Position numbers and translations under genes: made by a program. From contig NC_043000.1 in NCBI RefSeq assembly GCF_006345805.1, positions 103,292,001 to 103,356,000 on the forward strand: a stretch of DNA of 64,000 bases, read 5' to 3'. Shown here one piece after another: positions 2,443-63,838 of the stretch (position 1 is its first letter; each line of letters opens with the position of its first letter). The notes beneath the pieces are model-generated. The model saw nothing but the letters and a program-made list of their open reading frames with translations, was not told the DNA's origin and made no database searches. This DNA comes from Octopus sinensis. Lineage: Eukaryota.

Positions 2443-2715
2443 AGTTAATCCAACATGAAAGCACAAAAAAACACAACGCAAGGACAAATATAGTATTATT
2501 GGACGCCCAGGAAAGAAGGAATAAAGGAGCGTTTAACGTTTCGAGCGGAGCTCTTCGTCGAAAACATAGGTGAAGGGAAAGATCCAGAGAAGGGAAGACA
2601 GAGGGAAAAAAATCGCCAACGGTACACACGTGGTCACATCTTGAATGACCGGAAGGAAATGGGTGAAGAAAAGTTCTTTCAAAGTGGAGGAACGAGTGCA
2701 AGTCAGGCATGTTGA
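2443..2715 (-). mobile_element. Penelope-like pLTR remnant, family 1, with hammerhead-like motif at 2531-2565
   Basis: Homologous to 8378-8680 and 63678-63775; minus strand GTTT-TCGACGA-A-GAGC-TCC-GCTC-GAAAC-GTT-AAAC; terminus GGATTAAC abuts (TA)n. Confidence 0.7.
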
Positions 2716-2730
2716 GAAATATATATATAT

Positions 2731-2918
2731 TAGCTCAAATTTACAGAAAATAAAGACGAAGACCGGTGTAGGAACAATAAGCAGGTGTGTTAGTTTAACG
2801 CTGGGGAAAGAATGGAAAAGTCTTTTACGTTTCGAACCTGCACTCTTCGATAGAAAGGATTAAGAGGGAAATAAACGGAGAGAGAAAAATGTGCAGAGTT
2901 CAACGGTCCAGCATGACG
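2731..2918 (-). mobile_element. Penelope-like pLTR remnant, family 2, with hammerhead-like motif at 2822-2857
   Basis: Homologous to 16101-16290, which is linked to a GIY-YIG ORF; minus strand CTTT-CTATCGA-A-GAGT-GCAG-GTTC-GAAAC-GTA-AAAG; (TA)n on both sides. Confidence 0.75.
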
Positions 2919-3555
2919 ATATATATATATATTGAAAATCATATTATCTAACTGCATTTCAGATTTTCACACATTATGTCACACTCATTAGTTATACTTG
3001 TATTCATGCTGAATAGACAACAGCGTTGTCGTATCAACTGTGCTGAATTTAGTCAATTACTTTTTGTCTTTAATTGTGGGAGGAAAATGTCTTTCGTGAA
3101 GATACGACGTTCTTCTCCCACTAGTTGATATGAAAACACTGTCGCCGGCCAGGTATGAATGCTAAGCATTTCTAATGAGAGTTACTCAATCTCTGAAGAT
3201 TTTACAATGTAATCAAGTAATAAGATTTTTCCGCATATAACTGATATTTATTCACTGTTTGTGGAAAGCGCGGATGATGATGTAACTAGTTACTATATAA
3301 ACAACCTTTTTGTTTTCCTTTATATATATATAAACCAGACGCATCGCACAACCAACTAAAAGCGGTCAAGTACCACCACCCAACATATCGAGAAAGAGCT
3401 ATCGGTCAGTTAATGCGATCGGAGGCTGGATCGGATGGGTATACCCATGCTGGTCAAATTAAACCACTCCTGATAGTAGCTACCTGTCAATTCAATTACG
3501 TTTCAGTTTTGTAAACATACTTCCCTGGAACTAACTATGGCTTCCTCTACATATA

Positions 3556-3965
3556 GGCGCAGGAGTGACTGTGTGGTAAGTAGCTTTCTTACCAACCACA
3601 TGGTTCCAGGTTCAGTCCCACTGCGTGGCACCTTGGGCAAGTGTCTTCTACTATAGCCTCGGGCCGACCAAAGCCTTGTGAGTGGATTTAGTAAACGGAA
3701 ACTGAAAAGAAGCCGGTCGTATATAAGTGTATGTATATATATGTGTGTGTGTGTGTGTGTTTGTGTGTCTGTGTTTGTCCCCTCCCCAACATCGCTTGAC
3801 AACTGATGCTGGTGTGTTTACGTTCCCGTAACTTAGCGGTTCGGCAAAAGTGACCGATAGTTTAAGTACTAGGCTTACAAAGAATAAGTCCTGGGGTCGA
3901 TTAGCTCGACTAAAAGGCGGTGCTCCAACATGGCCGCAATCAGATGACTGAAACAAGTAAAAAAG
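3556..3965 (+). mobile_element. Full-length tRNA-derived CORE-like SINE (family A)
   Basis: tRNA-like head (GGCGCAGGAGTGACTGTGTGGTAAG...GGTTCAGTCCC), CORE-like CCTTGGGCAAGTGTCTT, internal (TA)/(TG) tract, tail GACTGAAACAAGTAAAA; more than 10 homologues in the window. Confidence 0.9.
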
Positions 3966-3984
3966 GAAAAAAGAAATACATACA

Positions 3985-4018
<34 letters not shown>

Positions 4019-4049
4019 CATACATACATAATACTTATGTACATACATT

Positions 4050-4260
4050 ATTGACAAAATCGTTAACACGCTGGACAAAATGCGTAGCGGTATTTCGTCC
4101 GTCTTTACTTTCTGAGTTCAATTTGCGCTGAGGCCGTCTTTGCCTTTCATCCTTTCGCGATCGATAAAATAAGTACCATTTGAATATTGGGGTTGATGTA
4201 ATCGACTAGCCCCGCTTCTACAAAATTTCACGCCTTGAACCTATAGTCGAAAGAATTATT
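4050..4260 (+). mobile_element. Diverged tRNA-derived SINE (family B, Deu/Nin-like core)
   Basis: GAGTTCAA B-box followed by GCCTTTCATCCTTTCG..TCGATAAAATAAGTACC core; homologous to 14585-15535. Confidence 0.85.
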
Positions 4261-4478
4261 AAAATTATTGTTTCCTTCTTCTTCGTATGAATAAAAACTA
4301 AAGAATTTTCCTTGTGGAATTTATTTTTAGATATTGAAAGTTTTTGCTTGCTTAGGTTGTGAATTTTATCTTGGTGTGACCTTAGCTTTATTTTTCCTGG
4401 GGTCTTACTTGCACATAATCCTAACGATGATAAATGCATTTTCTACCTCTGTTAATAGTAACCTTTGTAACTACATTT

Positions 4479-4480
<2 letters not shown>

Positions 4481-4565
<85 letters not shown>
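4481..4565. repeat. (ATCT)n microsatellite
   Basis: Directly visible. Confidence 0.98.
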
Positions 4566-4566
<1 letters not shown>

Positions 4567-4739
4567 TCTATGTAGCTATCTTTTTTTTTTTTTTTTTTTG
4601 AACCACTGACTACACTCACACAGGCATACACATATTCGCACACAATCACAAATACATTTGCATACACTATGTCATCCCACGATGTGTACAACCGAGACAA
4701 CCCCTGCGTGCTCGCTGAACCTGCTAGAAATCCAAATAC

Positions 4740-4811
<72 letters not shown>

Positions 4812-5408
4812 CGGACACAGGCAAATGTATCATTGTATCCGCGGTAGTGTTTGTTCGGGGGTTTTTATATAGTTTTTATTGATGGTCCTTTAGTAGAAAG
4901 TAGCTGGTGGCAGATCACATAGCTTAATATAAAAGTGTTAAGATTTATGTTTCAAAAGTCTTTTTGCTCTGTTGATCAGTGATGTGACGACGAAAAGAGA
5001 AAACGTTGAAAGTCTTTCGTTAACTGACCGTATAAAGTAAACTCTAGTCAAAGGTGATAACCTTTTGATAGCAGCTGATATTTATCTCGAACTCTTATCG
5101 CCAGATCTCTCACTGTAACAGCTTTATTATTCTGTTGTCCGATAGACCCCGAACTAAGTAGGGCGAATTGTTTTCTTTCTTTTTTCTTTCTCTCTTCTTC
5201 TCTCTCTCTCCTTCTTTCTTTCCGTGTGAATGTCTGTCGTTCATTTTCTTTTTCTTTCTTCTATATTTTTTTTTTATCATTTTCCAAGCAGATAGACTCT
5301 TTCTTTCAGTAGCTATACGTATATCTAATTTCATATTCGCTGAAAGAAATTTACCAAAACGAAATATATGCGTGCGCGTTCAAACATACACACTCTCTCT
5401 CCCTCACG

Positions 5409-5461
<53 letters not shown>

Positions 5462-6200
5462 AGAGTCATACACACTCGTACCCACACATACACACGTACA
5501 TACGCACGTATACACAAATACACAAATGCACACTTGCATACATTCATGATCACATAAAGGAATAATAAACGCACATCAATGAACTCACGCAGGCACACAC
5601 TCGCACACACGCACAGACACACACACACGCATGTACACAGTCATACACAAACTCCTCATACACACGCTCACACATACAATCATACACACGCACGAACACA
5701 AAACAAGCACCAACACAGAGAATAAAGAACTTACTCATTAGCACTTATACACATGAATGAACACACACACACACCAACGCACAAACACATACACACACAC
5801 ACACACGCACACGCTCATACACACACATACTCACACATTCTCATTGTATGAACACATACAGATAAATATAACCCTAACATACACATGCATAAACACTGAC
5901 AAGCACATGTACGTTTGCACTTATATATGAGTGAAGCCAAGACGGACGACATTAATACAACATCAATATTTATATACAACTAGCACAACCTTTTCAATAG
6001 TCTTGACTCTCAAGACTATTGAAAAGGTTGCAAGACGCAACGAAAATTTTAGGAAAATAAAAGTAAGAAAAAAGTGTAAATTTTACCGGTGAGTGTGTTA
6101 CATTATAAGGCACAAAAAGAAAACGACTCTCCCCAGACACAACAGAATATGCTTCAACACCCGAACTCATATAAAGAATCTTGCAAACGAAATCCAAAAA

Positions 6201-6367
<167 letters not shown>

Positions 6368-8377: not shown

Positions 8378-8380
<3 letters not shown>

Positions 8381-8680
8381 TAATCCAAACGGGAAAACAG
8401 AAAAAACAACAACACAAGGAGGTGGAAAAATTAAAGTATTATTATTAGGCGCTCAGGAAAAAGGGAAGAAGGAGGGTATGACGTTTCGAGCGGAGCTCTT
8501 CGTCGGAAACATAAGAGAAAGAAAGATCCCGAGGTGGGCGAACGGAGGGAAAAAAAACGCGACTGGTTTTTACGAAGTAAACATGCTGAAAGGCCGGAAG
8601 TTTTGGACAACAGGGGCTGGTTTTTAAAGACAGAAGAGCGGAAAAAGGAAGGTTGGTAACAACTCGATGAATGGGATATA
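8378..8680 (-). mobile_element. Penelope-like pLTR remnant, family 1, with hammerhead-like motif at 8476-8510
   Basis: Minus strand GTTT-CCGACGA-A-GAGC-TCC-GCTC-GAAAC-GTC-ATAC; abuts (TA)n at 8343-8376. Confidence 0.7.
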
Positions 8681-11799: not shown

Positions 11800-11802
<3 letters not shown>

Positions 11803-12010
11803 ATATGTAGGCACAGGACGTCATGAAACGTGTACAATAAAAAAGTACGAAGCACGAGTACATGGAATATGAATTATTCTTTCGAAAAACGAAAGACAAA
11901 AATGGGAGACAAAACAAACAACATAAAGAACGACCCTTCATCAGTTGTTGGCTGTTTTTCGAGTCTCGTATTTCGAAAATTTAACAACAATATACGCTCT
12001 CAGAATATAT
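11800..12010 (-). mobile_element. Penelope-like terminal repeat remnant, family 3
   Basis: Homologous to 17545-17725 (ACAGCC.ACAACTGATGAAGGGTCGTTCTTTATGTT); terminus abuts (TA)n. Confidence 0.6.
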
Positions 12011-14149: not shown

Positions 14150-14584
14150 CACACATACACGCGTGCACACACGTAATATTATATCTGTGAGTCTATGTAT
14201 GTATGTATGAATGTGAGTGGGCGCACGCGTGCGTATAGTGTGTAGATAGCTTCAATATGTCACGCACTTGCGTGTATTTTTAGCTGCACAAAAATGCTTG
14301 TATGACTCAGCTTGAAAGAGCCGGGTATAGATGCTCACACTTTTACAATGTCATCATTACCATCATCACCAAAACTACCAAAGCTCTCAAACCTCCTACC
14401 CTACCCCGCTCCTGGTCATCGTGGTTGTCATTGTCCTCACGATCAATAATTCGTAGTTTTCCGCTTGATAGGTGATACGGCGGATGAAACACTCACTGCC
14501 ATATTCATGAGCGGATTACTGCAAACATATATCCACAAGGTGTCAAATGCAGGCAAGCTTATACCCTATATTTTCCGGTTCGAA

Positions 14585-15535
14585 GGCGGTGCGCTGGCAG
14601 AAACGTTAGCACGCCAGGCGAAATGCTTAGCGGTATTTCGTCTGCCGCTACGTTCTGAGTTCAAATTCCGCCGAGGTCGACTTTGCCTTTCATCCTTTCG
14701 TGGTCGATTAAATAAGTACCAGTTACGCACTGGGGTCGATATAATCGACTTAATCCGTTTGTCTGTCCTTGTTTGTCCTCTCTGTGTTTAGCCCCTTGTG
14801 GGTAGTAAAGAAATAGGTATTTCGTCTGCCGCTACGTTCTGAGTTCAAATTCCGCCGAGGTCGACTTTGCCTTTCATCCTTTCGTGGTCGATTAAATAAG
14901 TACCAGTTACGCACTGGGGTCGATATAATCGACTTAATCCGTTTGTCTGTCCTTGTTTGTCCTCTCTGTGTTTAGCCCCTTGTGGGTAGTAAAGAAATAG
15001 GTATTTCGTCTGCCGCTACGTTCTGAGTTCAAATTCCGCCGAGGTCGACTTTGCCTTTCATCCTTTCGTGGTCGATTAAATAAGTACCAGTTACGCACTG
15101 GAGACGATATAATCGACTTAATCCGTTTGTCTCTCCTTGTTTGACCTCTCTGTGTTTAGCCCCTTGTGGGAAGTAAAGAAATAGGTATTTCATCTGCCGC
15201 TACGTTCTGAGTTCAAATTCCGCCGAGGTCGACTTTGCCTTTCATCCTTTCGTGGTCGATTAAATTAGTACCAGTTACGCACTGGGGCCGATATAATCGA
15301 CTTAATCCGTTTGTCTGTCCTTGTTTGTCCTCTCTGTGTTTAGCCCCTTGTGGGTAGTAAAGGAATAGGTATTTCATCTGCCGTTACGTTCCGAGTTCAA
15401 ATTCCACCGAGGTCGACTTGGCCTTTCATCCTTTCGCGGTCGATAAATTAAATAGCAGTTGCGTACAGGGGGTGATCTAATTGACTGGCCCCTCCCCATA
15501 AATTTCAGCCATTGTGCCTAGATTAGAAAAGAATA
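14585..15535 (+). mobile_element. Family B SINE carrying a tandem array: head + 4 x 184-bp units + divergent terminal unit
   Basis: Units start at 14632, 14816, 15000, 15184 and 15368; TSD ATATTTTCCGGTTCG at 14568-14582 and 15533-15547. Confidence 0.97.
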
Positions 15536-15902
15536 TTTTCCGGTTCGTTGTCTGGTTAATGATTGCATACTGCTGGTAAATGCGACTGAGAAATACAAAC
15601 GAAAAAGCCACCACGTACAGATGACAGATAAATTTCGTCCCAATTACTTTTAGAAAAGGGAAACATGTAAAGAAGATTATCTAGAAACACTAAGACAAAA
15701 TAAGGGACGATATGGAAATGGCAGGAATGATTATGATCATAAGTTTACTCAGTGAGGGCCGACCTGCGGTTAATGGAAGCAATAAGTATGGTAATACAGG
15801 ATTCACAAAATATAAATTCAGTTATCGAATCGACAACATACGAGCGTATGTTGTTTAAAGTTTATATACGTATATACATATATATATGCATATATATATA
15901 TG

Positions 15903-16100: not shown

Positions 16101-17162
16101 GTTGGAATTTATAAAAAAACAAACAAAACAAAAGACGAAGACCGGTGTGTAAACAACAAACAGATGTGTTAGTTTAACGCTCGGAAGTGAGAAAGTATTT
16201 TACGTTTCGAGCCTACGCAGAAAGGAACACAGAAATAAAGAGAGACAGAAAATAAAAACGGTTTAGTGGCTAGCGATCAATCATGGCGAATGCCGGACAG
16301 AGGTGGTCAGACAGGAGAGCTCGGAAGAAAGCGAGATAGTAAAGTAGTAGTGATCCCAAAACGAAGGTGCGCGTGCATACATGTGTATGTGAGAGCGTTT
16401 ATGTGCGTGTGGATAGGGGCTGGTGACCATGACGTGTGTGTGTGTGCATGTGTAGGTGTGTGGATGATGGTATAGGTGCTGAGAAGTGGTTAGTGCTAGT
16501 GTGTGGGGGGTTGTGTGAGGTGGTGTGGTGTGGTAAGGTGATGTGTGGCGTGTGGTGTGGTGGTGTGTGGTGTGGGTGTGTGGGGGTATGGGGAGGCGAG
16601 GGTGGGGGAATAAAGGGTAGGCTGTGTGTTGGGGTGAAGATGGTGTATGGGTGAAGTTGGGGTGGGGTAGGTGTAGGTGTGAGGGTGGGGGTGGGGTATG
16701 TGGGAGTTGAATGTGTGGGATGGGGTGGAATGTATAGGGAGGGTAGGGCTGGAATGTGCAGGGGTGGGTAACGATGGAGGGTAACAATGAAGAGAGGGGG
16801 AAGGGGAAGGGGGAGGGGAGGTGGGTAGGAGTGAAAAGAGGAAGTAGGTGTCAGAGCAAGAGAGGAGAGGAGAGGGGGTGAGAGTGAAGGGAGGATATAG
16901 GTGTGAGAGGAAGAGAGGAGGTTGTTAGATGAAGAGAGGAGGAGAGTTGAGCCCATTGGCGCAAAAGATCGAAGAGGGAAGATTAATTCCTATTTACGGC
17001 GAAGACGGGAGTCCGGATGGCCCCTGTGGAAGGACAACTGAACACAGACAGATGTTGTAAGGAATGACCGGTAGAGCGGAAATGGTGCGAAACCGAAGTG
17101 TCGTTGCCAAGTCTGATGCCTCGGAGGTGTTCCGTGATCCGGTCAGCCAAGCGGCGTTCGTT
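16101..17162 (-). mobile_element. Penelope-like retroelement 3' remnant: GIY-YIG endonuclease C-terminus (16925-17160), C/A-rich 3' region, family 2 pLTR
   Basis: ERRLADRITEHLRGIRLGNDTSVSHHFRSTGHSL...RLRRK*ELIFPLRSFAPNGLN fits the R..EH / HF...H / P.GLN signature of Penelope endonucleases; ends at (TA)n. Confidence 0.88.
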
Positions 17163-17164
17163 TC

Positions 17165-17725
17165 GTTTTTTTCTCTCTTATCCTCTCTCTAATTCTTTTT
17201 CTCCCTTTCACCGTTTTCTATCTGTCTGTCTGTCTCTCTCTCTCTCTCTCCCTCTTTCTTCTTTACTCACTCTCGTTGCTCACACGTGACCATCGTCTAT
17301 CTTTCTTTTCTTTTAGTATGTCTTACAGACCAGACGCATTCTTATCTGTCTCCTCTTCTATTTTCTATTTTGTCAAAGACAATATTCTTCCAGCGTTTGC
17401 TAACTCACCTCGTCTGGCCTAACGGCCCTCCGTATTTGTTTTCGTTTGGTTTGTTGTATGTCTCCACTGTCCTGTTTTTATTACCAACTTTGACCCTCCG
17501 AAAATCCCAAATTATATTTTGGTGCGCGGAAGAAACTGCCTTCCAAAGCTTCATATTGTCGTTAAATGTCCGAAATAATGAGTACATGGACAGCCGACAA
17601 CTGATGAAGGGTCGTTCTTTATGTTACTTGTCTTGTTTTCCATTTGCTTCTCTCGTTGTTCGCATACCCAAGTTTGTCTTCATATTTCATGTTGTTTATG
17701 TTTTGTAACGTCCTGTACCCATATA
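17165..17725 (+). mobile_element. Penelope-like 3' remnant, family 3, joined in inverted orientation to the previous element
   Basis: CT-rich region and CACGTGACCATCG (also at 10540-10560 on minus), CCGAAAT...CTGATGAAGGG segment, terminus on (TA)n. Confidence 0.55.
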
Positions 17726-20551: not shown

Positions 20552-20881
20552 AAAGGCAATTCTTATATCCATCTTAACGTGGATGTCTTATTAGAACTCC
20601 GAATTCTGCGTTGTTAGCCCTGGGTGATTTTCTCATATAGGCCTTTGGTGCAAAAAAGCACACACTTAGATCGTAGCTGTCGAGAATCATGTGTTATGGA
20701 CGCCGGAACTCCCATGTCACGCCATTTCAGTCTACTGGGTAGACGATTCTCATCGGCTACGATCTATGTGTGCGCTTTTATGCACCAAACGCCTATATGA
20801 GAGGCTCTCTCAAGGCTAATAACGCAGTATTCAGTGATCTAACAAGATATCCTCGTTAAGTTGGATATAAGGATTACCTTT
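20552..20881. repeat. Foldback element: 141-bp ungapped inverted arms, 48-bp spacer
   Basis: 20552-20692 vs 20741-20881: 115/141 identical by hand alignment, no indels. Confidence 0.95.
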
Positions 20882-23964: not shown

Positions 23965-24412
23965 CGATGTGGTTCTGTGGTTAAGAACCTTGTTTTGCAA
24001 CCATGTGGTTTCGGGCTCAATCTCACTGAGACAAGTGACTTCTATTATAGCCGCGAGTCGACCAATACTTTGTGAGTGAATTTGGTACACGGAAACTGTG
24101 TGGAAGCCTCCTATATGTGTGTTTGTCTTTGTATTTGTCCCAACCCCACTGCTTGACAACCGGTGTTTGTTTGTTTACCTTCCCGTTACTTGGCATTTCA
24201 GCAAGAGACCAATAGAACAAGTACCAGATTTAAAATAAGTACTAGGGTGGGAAACCGTTTTGAAGGGCTTAGTCGAACAAATCGACCCTAGTACTTATTT
24301 TAACTCTGGTACTTGTTCTATTGGTCTCTTGCCGAAATGCCAAGTTACGGGGAGGTAAACAAACAAACAAACACCGGTTGTCAATTAAAACACGTGAAAA
24401 CTAAAGATAAAG
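23965..24412 (+). mobile_element. Family A SINE with internal inverted duplication
   Basis: Arms 24153-24248 and 24285-24384 are reverse complements. Confidence 0.9.
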
Positions 24413-28866: not shown

Positions 28867-28879
28867 TGTAGAAGAATAC

Positions 28880-29292
28880 TCTTTTATTATTTTACTTGTT
28901 TCCGTCATTTGAATGCTGCCATGCTGGAGCACCGCCTTTAATCGAGCAAATCGACCCCAGGACTTATTCTTTGTAAGCCTAGTACTTATTCTATCGGTCT
29001 CTTTTTGCCGAACCGCTAAGTTACGGGAACGTGAACACACCAGCATCGGTTGTCAAGCGATGTTGGCGGGGGGCAAACACAGACACACAAATACACACAC
29101 ATATATATATATACATACACATATATACGACCGGCTTCTTTTCAGTTTTCGTCCACCAAATCCACTCACAAGGCTTTGGTCGGCCCGAGGCTATAGTAGA
29201 AGACACTTGCCCAAGGTGCCACGCAGTGGGACTGAACCGGAACCATGTGGCTGGTAAGCAAGCTACTTACCACACAGCCACTCCTGCACCTA
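28880..29292 (-). mobile_element. Full-length family A SINE
   Basis: Close reverse-complement match to 3556-3965. Confidence 0.92.
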
Positions 29293-30023
29293 TGAATATA
29301 AATGATTTGAAATTAACGATACGAAACTTTGTGATCCCCTAAACAGACCATAAAGATATAGTAGGTCTCAACTTGTTACAAGTTTTTCTCGTAAAAGAAA
29401 ACATTCTAGGCAGAAGCATTATAATTTTTCTAATTATTCCGTTAGTGTTGTTTGCTTGCAGGCAAATCATAAAACAGCAGACCTACGGTCAAAGATGCTG
29501 CTGAAATTGTTTTTTCGTAAAATAATTTCTGTTTAGGTGACGTAGGTCCTAGCACTTTTTAAGTGGTTCATATAGCCGACAGAAAAGTCAATTTGGGCTA
29601 TTTTATAGTACAAGAGTAAATCATGATTTAAGTGAAGTGAGAAGAGTACTTACGTCGTTTTAACATATAGGTATCATAGTGCTGCTTGTGTTGGTATCGA
29701 TATTCATATTGTTATAATCAGTATCAGCCATGATCGTAAAAGCTAAATTCTGCATGATGTAATATATATCTTATAATCCTGCCTGAATAATGCTACGTTG
29801 GAAGAGAAAAAGGCACTTCACTCATTTATCACAGAATGAATAAGCCATATATTGATTTAAGATCAAGGAGTCTGCATAATTGTGGAAAACGTTCCAAAAC
29901 ACATTTTTAAACGGTCCTCCTACGCCTCCACGCCTTATGGAGAAGGTGCAATATTACATTGTATGTATATATGTATGTATGAATGTATGTATGTACGTAT
30001 GTGTGTGTGTGTGTGTGTGAATG

Positions 30024-32584: not shown

Positions 32585-32828
32585 CTTTTTACTCTTTTTA
32601 CTCTTTTACTTGTTTCAATCATTTGACTGTGGCCATGCTGGAGCACCGCCTTTAATCGAGCAAATCGACCTCAGGACTTATTCTTTGTAAGCCTAGTACT
32701 TATTCTATCGGTCTCTTTTTGCCGAACCGCTAGGTTACGGGGACGTAAGCACACCAGCATCAGTTGTCAAGCGATGTTGGGGGGGGGACAAACACAGACA
32801 CACAAACACACACACACACACACACACG

Positions 32829-32907
<79 letters not shown>

Positions 32908-33083
32908 TACATATATATACGACGGGCTCCTTTCAGTTTCCGTCTACCAAATCCACTCACAAGGCTTTGGTCGGCCCGAAGCTATAGCAGAAGACACTTG
33001 CCCAAGGTGCCACGCAGTGGGACTGAACCTGGAACCATGTGGTTCGCAAGCAAGCTACTTACCACACAGCCACCCCTACGCCT
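32585..33083 (-). mobile_element. Full-length family A SINE with expanded internal microsatellite
   Basis: Close match to 28880-29292. Confidence 0.92.
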
Positions 33084-33690
33084 ATGGTGACCAATTTATG
33101 GTGACCAAATTTATCATTCTATTAAGTAAAAGTCTTATGGTGATGGAAAGGTGGTGACGTGAGCAGCCCTAACCAGTTGGAAGCGCACAGTAAGCTACAG
33201 CATTCGTCAGTTGCTTGAAATCATACAGATTGATTTGCAGCAGAACTGAACAGTCATTTGAGAGGTCATGAACGGAAGTCAGAAATACCGTTGAGAACGA
33301 GGAAGTACAAAAAGACGGTAATTATCTTTGAAGATGAAAAGATCACCATATGTATGTATGTATTTGTACACAGAGGTATACATATGAAAATATTGTTTAA
33401 CGATATGGAATATCTTCGAAAATAAGTATATAAATAATTAGTTCAGTGCAAGTTGAAGTTCTAAAAGAAACACTCCATATACGGAAGCGCTAACATCACA
33501 ATGCACTCTTTTGCCTACAGTCATCTCTGCATTTATACTCCTTTTGTGCTAGTATACTGCACTCACTCAAAAGGTGGTTGGTACTGTCGTCTCTTTCCTT
33601 GCATATTCTACATTTGCTGACATTTTTTGTCGATCTTTGCCTATACTGGATTTATTCTAAGGGCTTGTTCTTGAAAGTTTTTGTCTCTTG

Positions 33691-49942: not shown

Positions 49943-50870
49943 ATTGTATATGTGTGTGTGTGCGTAAGCACGCGCGCGTTTGGGTTTGACGTCGCTTGGC
50001 AACCGGTGTTGGGTTATTTACGGCTCTGTAGCCTAGCTTTACGGCAAATGAGAACAATAAACTAAATACAGAGTTTTAACAAATAAGCACTGGGATCGAT
50101 TTGTTCAATTAAACCCTTCAAGTTGATGTCCCAGCACGGTCGCAGTCCATTGATTGTAACAAGTAAAAGAAAAGAAAAAATGCCTTCCATTTTATTCGTT
50201 TAAAGACAAAGGGTATTGCATACGGGAAATTTAGCTGATATTTCTAGTATTGAGCGACTACATAGAGACACCCTCCTTGGCTCTGTTGCTTCAGGGTGGC
50301 TATGAGCAAACAGTCCACAAAGTGGAATGGATTTTGCTATGAAGTTTACTATGAGAAAGAAGCGAGATCTGGCATTTCGTACAGGAACCTACTGGACAAA
50401 GAACTATCCTCGAAAAACCATACTTTCCCTCCTTCTCAAGACAAACTACTTTATTCAGTAAGTGAATAGATTTTATATGCTATCAGCCGATGTAGACCAG
50501 AAATATCAAACTTACGACCTGTAGGTCGGATCTTGCTTAGGGTAAGATGTAGTCCGGCTTGCCGGCTCAATTTTATGATTAAAATTTGTTATTATTGTTT
50601 AAAATTTAAAATACTCAGTAAGATATATATCGCTAGCATTCGTTTAAAGGCAGAACCTGACTAGGATCATGATTAACACTAATCAAATCAGTGCACCTTA
50701 AGGACTCTTTTCATCACAAATTAATGGAAAAGAAGCTTATAAATCAATTTACAAAAATATGTAACCTCGCCCCGAATAGATCCAGTGGTATGAACGTTGG
50801 TGAACAAAACGTGTAATGAAAATAAATGAGTTGGAAGAATCAAAGTAAAATTAGTGCGAAAATGACCATA

Positions 50871-51102
50871 TTTATTTCTTTACTACCCACAAGGGGCTAA
50901 ACACAGAGAGGACAAACAAGGACAGACAAACGGATTAAGTCGATTATATCGACCCCAGTGCGTAACTGGTACTTATTTAATCGACCCCGAAAGGATGAAA
51001 GGCAAAGTCGACCTCGGCGGAATTTGAACTCAGAACGTAAAGACAGACGAAATACCGCTAATCATTTCGCCTGGCGTGCTAACGTTTCTGCCAGATCGCC
51101 GC
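50871..51102 (-). mobile_element. Young monomeric family B SINE
   Basis: Near-identical to head + unit 1 of the array; short TSD CATATT. Confidence 0.93.
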
Positions 51103-51942
51103 ATTCATATTACTATGGCGCTTGAATTAGTTTGCTGTGAGAAAGAAGAGAGGTCTGACATTTCGTGCAGAACCTACAGGACAAAGAACTATCCTCTAAA
51201 AGCCACACTTTCTCAGGATAAACTACTTCATTTCAGTATGTGAATAATGTATATACACTATCTACAAAATAATGACGGCCAAATCTGGCAAGTATTATAG
51301 CTAACTTAAACGATCCCCAAAGTAACTAGTACAACCAGAGTTGTATTACTTACTTTATTGACTCGGGAACGATGGCAGGCAAAATTGATTTCTGTGGAAT
51401 TTAAACCAAGAATGTAAAGTGACATACCTTAATATTGCAAGCTATTTAAATCTGGGGTTTCTCCTATTTTAAACGCTTTCCCTGTTTACAAATAATGATA
51501 TACCTTCTCTGAATATCCATTGAAATTTATCTAGCAAGCTTCAGAAACTCCTCTCCAAAATGATTAATTATATCGAGTTTTTTTTTTTTATTTGAAATGT
51601 ATCGAGCAACAGAAATTTCATGTACTATCTACACAGATTTATTTTATTTTATTTATATGTATTTTTTTTATTTATTTGTTCATTTATATATTTTCTGCTT
51701 TTCTTTCGCTTTGTGTTGTTTTGTACTCAAATTGTTCCGCACCAGGGAGTCAGTAAACTCTAGCGGCAAATATATTTAACACTGACTATACAACGGATTT
51801 CTTGCCGACGTCGTTTACATCGTAGCCAAATCCCAGTGTGCCGAAACGACACTGGGTTTTTGTTAATACAATAATTAAATAATTAACTTACAAGTAGTTT
51901 CAATTCTTATTGATTACAGAGCTGTTAACGAAATAGGAACAC

Positions 51943-52046
<104 letters not shown>

Positions 52047-53311
52047 TCACACACCCATACATATATACATACAGACATGTGTGTGTATGTGTGTGTGTGA
52101 ATGTGCGCCTGTGCAGTCAAGGCATGAATGGAGATGAAGAAAATAAATAAAATTAATTATGTATTAATTGGAATATTTCTCATAAGGAATGCTCAGGCTT
52201 CATAAGTTAATTGTGAGAACTTCACATCCATTAATCAACGTACGACAACACCCACACACCCACTGAAGTATATATGGAAACTTTACCTCACTGATCCTAC
52301 CCCCAACAACCAATTCTCAAATCTCTCGTCATGCACAATTTCCATAGAACATTAATCAGAGTGAAAACTTTCAGCTTTAGTTGTTTACTTTTGCTGTTTT
52401 CTTGTTCATTTGGAAATAGTATTTACCACTGAAAAAAAGGGGGAAAATTAGTATAAAATCAGTAGATTGTGAAGGCAATTCTCACAGTAGAGTATCATTG
52501 GTTTATTGTGAGAGTTATTCACATACTGTGAGATGGTATTATAACGGAAGAATTTACACAAATTGCTTTCTCGTCGTCGTACGAACAAGTCGTCACTCGC
52601 GAACGAGTATGGTTTGGTAATGCGTACCATATTTTCGCTTATTGTTTTTGGTTACTATGCAAGCATCAGCAGATATAGACACCTTCTCCAGTCTACTGCC
52701 CTTCGACCCAACGAAACATCCAGAAAATAACAACTGGAGCGAGCTAGAACTTCGCCAGCATTTGGTTTCTATTTATTTTGAGGTGAATAACTAGAGCAGC
52801 ATGAAATGAAGTGCCTTGTTCAAAGACACAATTCACCTCACAATCCATAAATTGAACCCATGATATTATGATTGTGAGTCGAACACACTAACCACAAGAA
52901 AACGCTCCTTCATTTTCTGGTTGGGTTCATTTACAAATTGTTCTGGTCATTAGCTGTCCTTTGATCTTTGCAATATGATAATCACCAATACACCAATAAA
53001 TATTTACATTTAGATAAGGGAACTTCAATTTGGTCGTTTGATACACTAGAATTAGCAACCAAAATCTCATTCGAATCATATGCTGTTATCTTAAAAACAG
53101 AAATAATATATGGAACAACGCTAGAATGTTTTTGATCTCATCTTCTACGTCCGCCATTCGACCTGCAAGAAATAACTGTCATTTCTCCTAACTTCCCTTA
53201 ATTATGTATTTCACCCAGCCTAAAATAAATTGGCATCGTATTTTTGTAATAAACAATTGATTGTCAGAAAAAGAATGAACAAAAAAACTGTCATTTCTCT
53301 CTTGTGCTACA

Positions 53312-53542
53312 TATTTCTTTACTACCCACAAGGGGCTAAACACAGAGAGGACAAACAAGGACAGACAAACGAATTAAGTCGATTACATCGACCCCAGTGC
53401 GTAACTGGTACTTAATTTATCGACCCCAAAAGGATGACAGGCAAAGTCGACCTCGGCGGAATTTGAACTCAGAACGTAACGGCAGACGAAATACGGCTAC
53501 GAATTTCGCCCGGCGTGCTAACGTTTCTGCCAGCTCGCCGCC
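53312..53542 (-). mobile_element. Young monomeric family B SINE
   Basis: 18-bp TSD TTTCTCTCTTGTGCTACA at 53294-53311 and 53543-53560. Confidence 0.95.
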
Positions 53543-54627
53543 TTTCTCTCTTGTGCTACAGTCCGAGCTTTGTGATTAAAGAATCAATCCGAGCCATCAG
53601 ACAGCTTAACTTTCATATAGCAAGGCAAACTTATTACACTTATTTTTAATTTTTTAATTTTTTTGTGGATCGGTAGAATCGTAAAAGCAACGGACAAAAT
53701 GCGTCGCGGCATTTATTCGTTTTTTGTGTGTTTTGAGTTCAAATCCTGACGAAGTCACTTCTGCTCTTCATCCCTCCGATGTCGACAACATAAAGCACTA
53801 ATGAAATCTCGGGCGTTGATTTAAATGACTAACCCTTTCTCCCTAAATTCAAAGTCTTGTGTCTATATAAGAAACAATCATTTGCCGAAAGCGGACCATC
53901 ACAACTATTTCATTTCCATTATGAAGAATACATTGCATGTACTGTTTAGCAACAAGAGTAATAGGTAGTCAAGATCTTTAAGGATAAATAGTGCACCAGA
54001 GAACTGAAACCAGATTGCAAACTTAGTCTGAGCTGGAGGAACGCAGCCATCAATTCTATTTGTAAATCGCAGATCCTTTTCCTCATCAAGCCACTGAGGT
54101 TAGTATCAAAAGACAGCATGAATTTCCATTTTCTTTCTCATTTGGGGGCAAAATGAATCAAGAGAATTTGGGATTCCATTTAAATACAGTATCAGTTTCG
54201 TCACGTCATAAGGGAAATATGCCAAGACTTTCCATAGATTTTCGTTCAGAATCTGTTAGCGAAATTTAATACCTGCCTCACAGGAAGTCGTCTGTTTTAT
54301 TCGTCAGTCGTCTTCATCATATTTTGACACTTAACGAAGGAGCCTGTACAAGGTCACCCGAACTGCTAACAATAGCAACCAAATCTTCTTCAAATCACCC
54401 CCCACCAAAACTTCTGCTTTAAATACAAAAAGGTCACATTGGCTAATGCAGTCGTACCTCCTCCCTAAAAATATTATAACATCTGTGGTCAGGGTTGACT
54501 TGGGACTAAGCATCACCACCAACTTCTCAGAAAATTGTTACGAGACGTGTGTGTACGTGTGTATATCATTGGTTTCTATATGTGTGTGAGTACATACACC
54601 ACACACACGCACATAGACACACATACA

Positions 54628-57432: not shown

Positions 57433-57583
57433 GAGGTGTGGTAAGTAGCTTGCTTACCAACCACATGGTTCCGGATTGAGTCCCAATGCGTGGCACCTTG
57501 GGCAAATGTCTTCTACTATAGCTTCGGGCCGACTAAAGCCTTGTGAGTGGATTTGATAGACAGAAACTGAAAGAAGCCCGCCG

Positions 57584-57637
<54 letters not shown>

Positions 57638-57855
57638 TGTGTGTGTGTCTGCTTGTACCCCATGTCCACCATCGCTTGACAACCGATACTTGTGTGTTTA
57701 CGACCCCGTAACTTAGTAGTTCGGCAAAAGAAAACTGTAGGATAAGTACTAGGCTTATCCTGTACTAGGCTTATCCAGTGGTCAGTTTGTTCGACTAAAG
57801 CCGGTACTCCAGCATGGTCATAGTCAAATGACTGAAATAAAGAATAAATAAAAGA
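57433..57855 (+). mobile_element. Family A SINE
   Basis: Colinear homology to 3556-3965. Confidence 0.88.
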
Positions 57856-58177
57856 ATATCTGTTAAAATGAGACGTCAATGTTATTTCATTTTCGCGTAA
57901 TTTGGACGACAGTTTATTCACCGCACCTGTATACAGACAAAAGGTAAGAGGCAGATCGAAAAAAACGTTACGGTACACAAAGGAATTGAACTTAACCTCC
58001 AAATTCGTTAACCAGGATTAGATCCACGTCGTCCAGAGTGGGTATAAGAGAAATCCAGGCGAGCTGATATGGAGATAGTGTGACAGATGAACCCGATTAG
58101 GCTTGGCGTAAACATAAACAGATATAGGTACACATTGATACAGACAGAACGTGTATGTATGTGTGTGTGTGTGTGTG

Positions 58178-60636: not shown

Positions 60637-61090
60637 ATATTTAAAGGTCGTTGGAGTGTGTGGTGCGGGTTGTTATTCAGTGAGACAATCATTGACATTC
60701 GAGGGAACTTGTAGTGGTGGTCTGTGTCGGCATGAATCAATTGGATAGAAATATTTTTTCCTTACCTTTATTCGTTTTCTCTACTGCGATGAAGGTTACA
60801 GACCGATTTTCTTTCTTCCCCAAACACGATAACATATCACTCAGTTAGATATACCTACTGCACAGTACTGTATTTTGTGCATGTGAAGATGGGGACTGGT
60901 GGAGAGACAGTGACGGGTTGGGTACATGTGTGTAAGAAAGGGTTTGACATACGGAGTCAGAGGCACTCAGACATGGAGGAAAAAGTGAGTGAATGTGAGA
61001 GACATAAAAATAATGACCGTGAGAGAAGGAAATTATGAAAAATACGCATAAGTAGACAGGTTGATAGAATGATAAATGTGTTTATTAAAT

Positions 61091-61515
61091 ATAGGTGCAG
61101 GAGTGGCTGTGTGGTAAGTAGCTTGCTTACTAACCACATGGTTCTGGGTTCATTCCAACTGCGTAGCACCTTGGGCAAGTGTCTTCTACTATAGCCTCGG
61201 GCCGACCAAAGCATTGTGAGTGGATTTGGTAGACGGAAACCGAAAGAATCCCGTCGTATATATGTATATATATATATGTGTGTGTGTGTATATGTTTGTG
61301 TCTATGTTTGTCCCTCCAACAACGCTTGACAACTGATGGTGGTGTGTTTACGTCCTCGTAACTTAGCGGTTCGGCAAAATAGACCGATAGAATTAGTACT
61401 AGGCTTCCAAAGAATAAGTCGTGGAGTTGAGTTGCTCGACTAAAGGCCGTGCTCCAGCATGGCTGCAGCCAAATGACTGAAACAAGTAAAAGAGTAAAAG
61501 AGAAAGAGTAAAGAG
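61091..61515 (+). mobile_element. Full-length family A SINE
   Basis: Close match to 3556-3965, (AAAGAGT)n-like tail. Confidence 0.92.
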
Positions 61516-63677: not shown

Positions 63678-63770
63678 ACTTCTTTCCTTCTTTCCTGAGC
63701 GTCCAATAATACTATATTTGTTCCACGTCCTCGCGTTGTTGTGGTTCTTTTTGTGCTTTCTTGTTTGGAT

Positions 63771-63775
<5 letters not shown>
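63678..63775 (+). mobile_element. Penelope-like pLTR family 1 terminal stub
   Basis: Reverse complement of 2443-2525; ends GGATTAAC then (TA)n. Confidence 0.75.

Positions 63776-63838
<63 letters not shown>

What the first reader, a model, noticed from the sequence alone, without database searches (positions are those of the whole stretch)
2443..2918. Families of short hammerhead-bearing Penelope-type repeats that dock on (TA)n
Seen: three families recur in the window (family 1: 2443, 8378, 63678; family 2: 2731, 16101; family 3: 11800, 17545), each with a fixed terminus abutting a (TA)n run. Families 1 and 2 carry a compact motif: stem I, YYRWCGA-A, 4-bp stem II, GAAAC-GTH, stem I. Stem III has no loop and overlaps the palindrome ACGT/AACGTT. 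Family 2 is physically linked to a GIY-YIG ORF at 16925-17160. Established: Penelope-like elements carry minimal type I hammerheads in their pLTRs, proposed to fold as dimers via a palindromic stem III. Inference: these are microsatellite-targeted PLEs or non-autonomous retrozyme-like derivatives with non-canonical cores (CCGACGA in family 1). Both family 1 copies share U4C and stem II, suggesting a family trait rather than decay.
Basis: partly seen in the sequence, partly recalled or inferred. Interest (0 to 1): 0.72.

Follow-up and report, generated by a model that had tools for sequence, protein, structure and literature searches.

The report
Rewired hammerhead ribozyme among Penelope repeats
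Two of the three repeat families are ordinary tail ends of Penelope-type jumping genes with a slightly altered copy of a known self-cutting RNA motif, but the third carries a predicted self-cutting 'hammerhead' RNA whose parts are wired in an order I could not find in print, and the same design sits at the ends of Naiad jumping genes that were reported to lack the usual one.

Summary
All three families are real, each with over a thousand genomic copies. Families 1 and 2 are 5'-truncated 3' ends of Neptune-type Penelope-like elements (PLEs): RT plus C-terminal GIY-YIG ORF upstream, 3' ends at TA-type microsatellites (43 of 46; 41 of 50; background 3-7%), and the known minimal type I hammerhead. 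U4C marks only one subfamily of family 1; family 2 has A6U with N7 free. Activity is untested. It has a canonical CUGAUGA/GAAA/NUH core in non-circular order (site, GAAA, CUGAUGA), and the 5' strand of stem II lies upstream instead of after A9. Stems I-III keep 5-8 bp across three subfamilies and a Naiad-linked family, with two-sided changes at 12 positions. The motif follows Naiad RT remnants here and can be read by eye in published Naiad consensi. Ten literature searches did not show it; this scan found it before on other DNA, including this genome. Both window copies are decayed; cleavage is not shown, truncated copies do not pile up at the cut, and family 3's autonomous partner was not found.

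The parts
2443..2718 (-). Family 1 copy: 5'-truncated 3' end of a Neptune-type PLE, fixed 3' terminus at 2443 next to (TA)n
   Evidence: ORF link of the family in L442
2531..2565 (-). Minimal type I hammerhead motif of family 1 (core UCGACGA here; U4C subfamily; GUU site; 4-bp stems I and II)
2731..2918 (-). Family 2 copy (diverged), TA runs on both sides
2822..2857 (-). Minimal type I motif of family 2, decayed here (G5A on top of the family's A6U)
8378..8675 (-). Family 1 relative; motif at 8476-8510 with CCGACGA, GUC site, stem I nearly lost
63678..63776 (+). Family 1 terminal fragment starting about 9 nt 3' of the predicted cut; no ribozyme core
16101..17157 (-). Family 2 copy: endonuclease C-terminus, low-complexity 3' UTR, motif with core deletion at 16197-16224, terminus at (TA)n
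16925..17160 (-). Broken C-terminal part of the GIY-YIG endonuclease of a Neptune-type PLE
   Evidence: matches residues 650-706 of the RT-EN protein P0001 at 67%
17161..17725 (+). Family 3a copy, joined back-to-back to the family 2 copy at its 5' end
17492..17613 (+). Split-core, non-circularly permuted hammerhead motif (decayed): helix IV/V scaffold 17492-17528, upstream stem II strand about 17529, site AUA 17553-17555, stem I 17556-17561, GAAA 17572-17575, stem I partner 17595-17600, CUGAUGA 17601-17607
   Evidence: this copy fails the strict descriptor
11800..12001 (-). Family 3b copy, truncated just 5' of the site block, so the upstream stem II strand is missing; site block 11985-11996, GAAA block 11967-11977, CUGAUGA 11938-11944

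Best explanation
The window holds dead copies of three abundant Penelope-like retroelement families that insert at TA microsatellites, and family 3 carries a predicted hammerhead ribozyme whose strands come in a non-circular order with the core opened between A9 and G10.1. Families 1 and 2 are truncated 3' ends of Neptune-type PLEs (RT, CX4CxxC linker, C-terminal GIY-YIG). Their endonuclease likely nicks (TA)n and their RT likely copies the RNA from a fixed point near its 3' end, falling off at variable places. Their minimal type I hammerheads would need to dimerise through the ACGU palindrome and are likely slow (U4C or A6U, mostly GUU or GUA sites). Family 3 is a unit of about 0.6-0.9 kb with no ORF found, two fixed 3' termini, head-to-tail partial tandems and inverted 5' arms, so it is likely moved in trans by a PLE enzyme, probably a Naiad. 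Its RNA is predicted to fold as: helix IV strand, hairpin V, stem II 5' strand, P4 strand, stem III 3' strand, cleavage site, stem I, short linker, stem II 3' strand, GAAA, stem III, P4, stem I partner, CUGAUGA, helix IV strand. Helices IV and V would rejoin A9 and G10.1 in space, so the core would assemble in one molecule without a dimer and would cut after the NUH triplet, freeing unit-length RNA from read-through or tandem transcripts. Shown: sequence, copy numbers, flanks, ORF links, stem covariation. Inferred: fold in three dimensions, cleavage, role in transposition, identity of the mobilising enzyme.
For: Core CUGAUGA, GAAA and UH are invariant in the majority lines of families 3a, 3b, 3c and the Naiad-linked family; stems I, II, III are 5-8 bp in all four, with two-sided changes at 4, 4 and 4 positions. 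A prediction held: the GAAA and CUGAUGA blocks of subfamily c, seen first in the pattern listing, predicted the site block found (5-bp stem III, GUC site, 6-7-bp stem I). On 12 hand-picked copies 94% of 282 cells pair, 9 pairs change on both sides, slid partners pair 36-45%. A strict descriptor hits 8/30, 9/30, 2/30 and 13/30 loci and 12/30 pattern-chosen loci, against 0/90 shuffles each and 13 of 17000 core-fixed shuffles. The upstream stem II is five Watson-Crick pairs in all four families, while the strand after A9 gives wobbles and mismatches. The motif lies in sense, mostly 0.4-1.4 kb, downstream of Naiad-type RT remnants in 16 of 50 loci. By eye the split form fits nine and the type-CSG order six published Naiad 3' ends (PMC8557442 File S5). 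PLE-like architecture: inverted arm in 14 of 69 copies, second terminus. Families 1 and 2.
Against: No cleavage data. 5' ends do not pile up at the predicted cut: 3 of 28 truncated family-3 copies within 3 nt (about 2 expected if uniform), 0 of 12 Naiad-type copies, none evident in families 1 and 2 (by eye). Helix IV is the weakest element: 7 bp in 3a/3b, only 4 bp in 3c with two outer pairs broken and not compensated, and 0 by the strict rule in the Naiad-linked majority. Helix V and IV show no two-sided change. Covariation rests on few related lineages, stems were extended until a mismatch, and the 12 rows were chosen by hand. Both window copies fail the strict descriptor. No family-3 ribozyme lay in sense behind a Naiad RT in 50 loci. 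Two Naiad 3'-end hits did not fit either order. The hammerhead of the Anolis PLE is not needed for insertion in vitro (PMC11167929, passages).
Confidence: 0.7

Rival explanations
1. Family 3 is an ordinary type-SGC hammerhead: stem II forms with the strand directly after CUGAUGA plus one extra nucleotide, and the upstream complement is an alternative or inhibitory pairing.
For: In 3a and 3b the strand after A9 can form G-C, G-U, G-C, U-G with the stem II 3' strand; an extra nucleotide after A9 and G10.1-C11.1 are typical of PLE hammerheads (PMC4209133); helix IV is weak in 3c and the Naiad-linked family.
Against: That pairing shrinks to 3 pairs (2 wobbles) in 3c and breaks at the third pair in the Naiad-linked family, with no compensation, while the upstream strand gives five Watson-Crick pairs that change together; in the Acropora Naiads no pairing after A9 is visible by eye.
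Confidence: 0.12
2. The family-3/Naiad motif is a conserved structured RNA derived from a hammerhead that no longer cuts; it serves as a binding or initiation signal for the PLE protein. The same may hold for the variant cores of families 1 and 2.
For: No pile-up of truncations at the cut; PLE hammerheads are slow in vitro and dispensable for insertion in vitro; the family 1 and 2 motifs fold by energy minimisation into simple rods that pair the core with ACGU (-7.2 and -7.6 kcal/mol); U4C and A6C lower activity in other hammerheads (PMC3088659, passages).
Against: In family 3 and Naiads all 11 catalytic nucleotides and H17 (A or C) are kept while the stems turn over, and N7 varies across Naiads, the pattern expected from selection on catalysis. 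In family 2 position 7 varies freely, as in active hammerheads.
Confidence: 0.14
3. The pairings in family 3 are chance complementarity in an AT-rich repeat.
For: Few independent lineages; helices were derived from the same sequences they are counted on.
Against: Shuffle and slide controls, a successful prediction, fixed register to the core, and the same design in unrelated sequences of other phyla.
Confidence: 0.03

Closest known systems
Minimal type I hammerheads of metazoan PLEs (Cervera and de la Pena 2014, PMC4209133; read parts 1-2 of 4: abstract, results, discussion)
   Same: Families 1 and 2: type I order, 4-5-bp stem I, extra nucleotide after A9, G10.1-C11.1, no loop III, palindromic ACGU, in the 3' repeat of an RT-EN element, mostly as single truncated copies.
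   Different: Cores with U4C (one subfamily) or A6U; the paper's text names only the U3-A8 variant; stem II is 4 bp. Lunse et al. 2017 on short-stem-III variants could not be read and may list these cores.
Type-SGC hammerhead (HRIMA-1 and variants; Eckert et al. 2023, PMC10085705; read outline, methods, all results, discussion part 1 of 2)
   Same: Order site block, GAAA block, CUGAnGA; short linker from stem I to stem II; all core nucleotides kept; mutually crossing stems.
   Different: Stem II's 5' strand is detached from CUGAUGA and lies upstream, which that paper assumed could not happen; extra helices IV, V and P4 (with an AGUA/GAA internal loop, named loop E from memory). SGC was found only in metatranscriptomes and none in genomes of known organisms; here it is an animal genomic repeat.
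Naiad PLEs (Craig et al. 2021, PMC8557442; read passages, supplement parts 1 and 24 and search hits in Files S1, S2, S4, S5)
   Same: TA insertion bias, tail, inverted arms; cephalopod Naiads are annotated 'HHR_half_core'; the same motif follows Naiad RT remnants in this genome.
   Different: The paper found no canonical hammerhead and did not describe a permuted one. Family 3 itself has no ORF and its motif string is absent from the supplement.
Neptune-type PLEs (definition from PMC8557442)
   Same: Families 1 and 2: RT, CX2-5CxxC linker, C-terminal GIY-YIG with CCHH, microsatellite bias.
   Different: Clade not tested by a tree; Nematis shares the linker.
Animal non-LTR retrozymes (bioRxiv 10.64898/2026.07.22.740005; read part 1 of 5 and passages; PMC7229834 search listing only)
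   Same: Family 3: non-coding, hammerhead-bearing, head-to-tail units, probably PLE-derived.
   Different: Retrozymes carry type I hammerheads in full tandem arrays; family 3 is mostly single or partial tandem and has the permuted form.

Membership tests
EN+ PLE, Neptune-type (families 1, 2) | ORF with RT followed by C-terminal GIY-YIG endonuclease, upstream of the terminal repeat | tested here: met
   P0001 and L091 ORF: RVT_1 E 2e-7 and 6e-8, GIY-YIG E 0.004 below cutoff; 27 of 29 EN loci have the family-2 end downstream; family 1 in 1 of 8 extended loci
EN+ PLE, Neptune-type (families 1, 2) | CX2-5CxxC linker and CCHH motif | tested here: met
   seen in the translation of the family-2-type ORF; not checked for the frameshifted family-1 ORF
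EN+ PLE, Neptune-type (families 1, 2) | RT groups with Neptune in a tree | not tested
   homologues carried no clade names
EN+ PLE, Neptune-type (families 1, 2) | Microsatellite insertion bias, fixed 3' end, variable 5' truncation | tested here: met
   43 of 46 and 41 of 50 vs 2.7-6.6%
Minimal type I hammerhead (families 1, 2) | Stems I and II, GAAA-C-G-U-H with palindromic stem III | tested here: met
   one compensatory change in stem I between the families
Minimal type I hammerhead (families 1, 2) | Canonical CUGANGA core | tested here: not met
   family 2: U6 in 37 of 40; family 1: canonical in 16 of 44, CCGACGA in 19 of 44
Minimal type I hammerhead (families 1, 2) | Self-cleavage as dimer | not testable with these tools
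   needs an in vitro assay
Hammerhead ribozyme (family 3) | CUGANGA, GAAA, NUH and three stems in register with them | tested here: met
   all core nucleotides in 19/29, 29/30, 7/29 and 27/30 copies
Hammerhead ribozyme (family 3) | Site-specific self-cleavage | not testable with these tools
   no assay; truncation test inconclusive
Type-SGC hammerhead (family 3) | Block order site, GAAA, CUGAnGA | tested here: met
Type-SGC hammerhead (family 3) | Stem II 5' strand directly after CUGAnGA (intact block C) | tested here: not met
   covarying strand is upstream; strand after A9 gives wobbles and mismatches
Naiad PLE (family 3) | ORF with N-terminal endonuclease and C-terminal RT ahead of the 3' UTR | tested here: not met
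   no ORF in family-3 units or 1.5-kb flanks; not behind Naiad RT in 50 loci. Met for the separate Naiad-linked family as far as the C-terminal RT goes
Non-LTR retrozyme (family 3) | Non-coding head-to-tail units each with a hammerhead | tested here: inconclusive
   pairs of motifs 592-931 nt apart and partial tandems exist, but most copies are single
Non-LTR retrozyme (family 3) | Type I hammerhead | tested here: not met
   permuted, split form
Non-LTR retrozyme (family 3) | Circular RNA intermediate | not testable with these tools
   tandem DNA copies give the same junction as a circle

The most novel reading that the evidence does not exclude
Animal Naiad retroelements and their non-coding passengers encode an active hammerhead of a new topology, in which the backbone between A9 and G10.1 is open and a two-helix scaffold rebuilds the core. 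With the type-CSG form in nematode Naiads, this is the ribozyme Naiads were thought to lack, and it gives non-circularly permuted hammerheads their first host in a known genome and a traceable evolutionary series.
Probability: 0.6. Interest if true: 0.85.

Novelty: new variant of a known kind. Interest (0 to 1): 0.72.

Why it matters
Non-circular RNA permutations were reported only from metatranscriptomes, metagenomes and one doubtful bacterial case, and their three blocks were assumed to be indivisible (PMC10085705). A split-core form in thousands of animal genomic copies would break that assumption, explain the 'half-core' puzzle of Naiads (PMC8557442), and give a monomer-folding PLE ribozyme that can be tested directly, unlike the slow dimer-dependent minimal forms. 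It bears on the open question of what hammerheads do in PLE transposition. Families 1 and 2, the stretch named in the finding, are of a known kind; their sister subfamilies with canonical and U4C cores and the fixed A6U core are a modest natural test of whether PLE hammerheads must cut.

Tried and rejected
Rfam scan of the window: 241 matches at E up to 10; none of the 150 shown is a hammerhead, 91 not shown. The repeat finder was swamped by microsatellites. Pfam found nothing in the three window fragments of the endonuclease. First idea for family 3, a type I hammerhead with a deleted stem II, was dropped. Second idea, contiguous type SGC, was lowered. The idea that family 3 is the 3' UTR of the published octopus Naiad was rejected: its motif is absent from that supplement and the Naiad has its own version. 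The search for family 3's autonomous partner failed; three family-3 pieces near Naiad RT remnants were read as separate insertions. The lead that truncated copies begin at the cut was not reproduced; 14 of 28 truncated family-3 copies start 1-14 nt 3' of the cut, which is more than uniform but is confounded by alignment drop-off and the pattern's edge. Sequencing runs: no RNA holder listed. Three raw RNA runs, most reads under 90% alike and apparently unstranded, were laid on family 3 and family 1: reads on both strands, no pile of ends at either predicted cut; treated as no evidence. Energy minimisation cannot show the pseudoknotted fold; it recovers only nested parts. Ten literature searches showed no paper describing permuted or split hammerheads in PLEs or Naiads; the library lacks most subscription papers, Lunse et al. 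2017 was not held, and supplements of PMC10085705, PMC4209133, PMC3088659 and of the bioRxiv preprint were not seen and may bear on novelty and on the U4C/A6U variants.

Full report
Setting. The window lies in G000 (2.72 Gb, contig C4), an AT-rich, microsatellite-dense animal genome. A motif from the published octopus Naiad consensus occurs 263 times exactly against 0 control, so the host is likely an octopus (inference).

Observation. All three families recur where stated and are abundant: first-look candidates 3770, 4348, 1970 and 2374; exact motif counts 6654 vs 0, 1374 vs 0 and 4488 vs 230. RNA sense is the minus strand for the copies at 2443, 2731, 8378, 16101 and 11800, and plus for 17545 and 63678. 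In pattern-chosen samples the 3' terminus is followed by a TA-type repeat in 43 of 46 family-1 and 41 of 50 family-2 copies with a recognisable end (49 and 51 examined), against 6.6% of window positions, or 2.7% of positions not already in such a repeat. The Rfam scan showed no hammerhead among the 150 of 241 matches listed.

Families 1 and 2 are truncated Neptune-type PLEs. The remnant at 16925-17160 is the C-terminal part of a GIY-YIG endonuclease, broken over frames. Of 29 other loci found with it, 27 have the family-2 end downstream in sense. Longer copies give an ORF with RT (Pfam RVT_1, E 2e-7 and 6e-8), a CX4CxxC linker and a GIY-YIG domain with CCHH residues (E 0.004, below cutoff). 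This matches the Neptune/Nematis definition in PMC8557442; homologues gave no clade name and no tree was built. Family 1 shares a CA-rich 3' UTR of over 1.4 kb and has a frameshifted RT-EN ORF 1.9 kb upstream in 1 of 8 extended loci. So the short copies are 5' truncations, not short elements.

Their motif is the minimal type I hammerhead of PMC4209133: 4-bp stem I, extra A after A9, 4-bp stem II, GAAAC-GUH with the ACGU palindrome. Among 44 family-1 copies with a readable motif (of 49), 19 read CCGACGA and 16 are canonical; the two types go with a separate diagnostic site (21 and 11 copies, one exception), so U4C marks a subfamily; the triplet is GUU in 32. Among 40 family-2 copies (of 51), 37 have U at position 6, position 7 varies, and the triplet is GUA (20) or GUU (14). 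The longest-ORF copies also read CUGUUGA. Natural U4C and A6C variants are known and slow (PMC3088659 passages); a search for A6U gave only a twister paper (listing only). The window copies are partly decayed (G5A at 2853, a core deletion at 16200, little stem I at 8378). Whether these cores cut is open.

Family 3 holds a rearranged hammerhead. Thirty copies each of the 17545 and 11800 types show canonical CUGAUGA with GAAA 5' of it. A site block lies further 5': stem III strand, NUH, stem I strand. Between subfamilies a and b, two stem III pairs and one stem I pair change on both sides. The pattern search then showed new GAAA- and CUGAUGA-block variants, and the site block predicted from them was found in subfamily c, with a GUC triplet. 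This order is type SGC of Eckert et al.. But the strand after A9 pairs poorly with the stem II 3' strand (3-4 pairs with wobbles in a/b/c, a mismatch at pair 3 in the Naiad-linked family), while a strand about 20 nt upstream of the site gives five Watson-Crick pairs starting with G10.1-C11.1 in all four families. [quoted passage not shown] A hairpin V ends directly before G10.1, a helix P4 extends stem III across an AGUA/GAA loop (named loop E from memory), and the strand after A9 pairs with the strand before hairpin V (helix IV: 7 bp in a/b, 4 bp in c with two outer pairs lost, none by the strict rule in the Naiad-linked majority). On 12 hand-picked copies 94.3% of 282 cells pair, 9 pairs change on both sides (all in stems I-III), and slid partners pair 36-45%. 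A strict descriptor hits 8, 9, 2 and 13 of 30 loci per family and 12 of 30 pattern loci, 1 and 0 of 30 family-1 and family-2 loci, 0 of 90 shuffles per set, and 13 of 17000 core-fixed shuffles. Neither window copy passes: 17545 has damaged stems II and III, and 11800 is cut off just 5' of the site block.

What carries it. Family 3 is a unit of roughly 0.6-0.9 kb (motif pairs 592-931 nt apart) with no ORF found. Of 69 pattern-chosen copies, 14 have an inverted arm at the 5' side (families 1 and 2: 2 of 49, 1 of 51), 57 reach the tail motif, 19 of these run on through a TA-rich segment into a head segment, and 14 of the 19 stop again before TA after a splice-donor-like motif. Two fixed termini and inverted arms are PLE hallmarks (PMC8557442; two RT start sites in PMC11167929). 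A fourth family with the same fold but different stems lies in sense downstream of Naiad-type C-terminal RT remnants in 10 of 30 best and 6 of 20 diverged RT loci. Family 3 itself was not found behind any of those 50 RTs, so its mobiliser is inferred, not shown. In the published Naiad consensi, read by eye only and only for the hits displayed, nine entries fit the split form (three Acropora, two Octopus, four others) and six nematode-section entries fit intact type CSG; two 3'-end hits did not fit and several were not worked out.

Tests that did not support cleavage. Of 83 family-3 matches, 55 extend beyond the scaffold and 28 are truncated inside a 95-nt span: 3 start within 3 nt of the cut (about 2 expected), 14 start 1-14 nt 3' of it; 0 of 12 truncated Naiad-linked copies start near the cut. 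Families 1 and 2 show no cluster either (by eye). The PLE hammerhead of Anolis cleaves in vitro but is dispensable for insertion and leaves no reads at its cut, so this absence is weak evidence.

Mechanism. Shown: anatomy, copy number, TA bias, ORF links, covarying stems. Inferred from known PLE biology: endonuclease nick at (TA)n, reverse transcription from fixed internal start points, variable 5' truncation. Predicted: the family-3 RNA folds as a monomer, helices IV and V bring A9 and G10.1 together, and it cuts after AUA, GUC or GUA to release unit RNAs. I put about 0.85 on the fold, 0.65-0.7 on cleavage, and 0.6 on a Naiad as mobiliser.

Novelty. Families 1 and 2 are new members of a known kind. 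Family 3 works like a type-SGC hammerhead but fails membership on the intact CUGAnGA block. Eckert et al. found SGC only in environmental sequence and none in genomes of known organisms; Craig et al. flagged Naiad 'half cores' without a fold. Ten searches showed no description; PMC13725137 (passages) only cites alternative permutations. Unseen papers and supplements may bear on this. I reached the split-core reading before the first look-up of earlier findings (note; look-up); that look-up and one search show that this scan has reported the same design several times, also in this genome. These notes are not independent support; one gave the truncation test, which I could not reproduce.

Verdict. 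Real; the named coordinates are ordinary PLE ends, and the value lies in family 3. New variant of a known kind, interest 0.72.

Noticed in passing
window 17157-17161: A 5'-truncated family-2 copy (minus) and a 5'-truncated family-3a copy (plus) meet back-to-back with no TA run between, as if one insertion event used two different RNAs.
   Followed up: partly
window 14582-15538; 50868-51106; 53308-53544: A 184-nt unit in about five tandem copies at 93-98% identity, with dispersed single copies on the other strand; not examined for a ribozyme.
   Followed up: no
window 3548-3958, 28876-29294, 32590-33125, 57436-57860, 61061-61502 and others: An abundant dispersed repeat of about 410 nt, at least ten copies in the window, SINE-like in layout.
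   Followed up: no
window 20552-20881 and 24177-24356: Long imperfect palindromes (330 nt at 76%, 180 nt at 82%).
   Followed up: no
families 1 and 2, about 20-25 nt 3' of the cut (e.g. window 2503-2510, 16177-16184, minus): A GAGCG motif is kept in both families and could pair with the stem II 3' strand as an alternative fold.
   Followed up: no
L259:1440-1560 and L485, L491, L497: An older Naiad-linked subfamily differs after the core; in L259 the strand after A9 can form a 7-bp helix IV with the strand before hairpin V (by eye).
   Followed up: partly
L092:1-1350 and 3140-6260: Two family-2-type elements in the same orientation 4.9 kb apart, one with a nearly complete RT-EN frame; 3' UTRs of 800-900 nt are built of C-rich and CA-rich repeats.
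   Followed up: partly
PMC8557442 File S5, nematode entries: Six Naiad 3' ends read as perfect type-CSG hammerheads, often with an extra helix enclosing the CUGAnGA block.
   Followed up: partly
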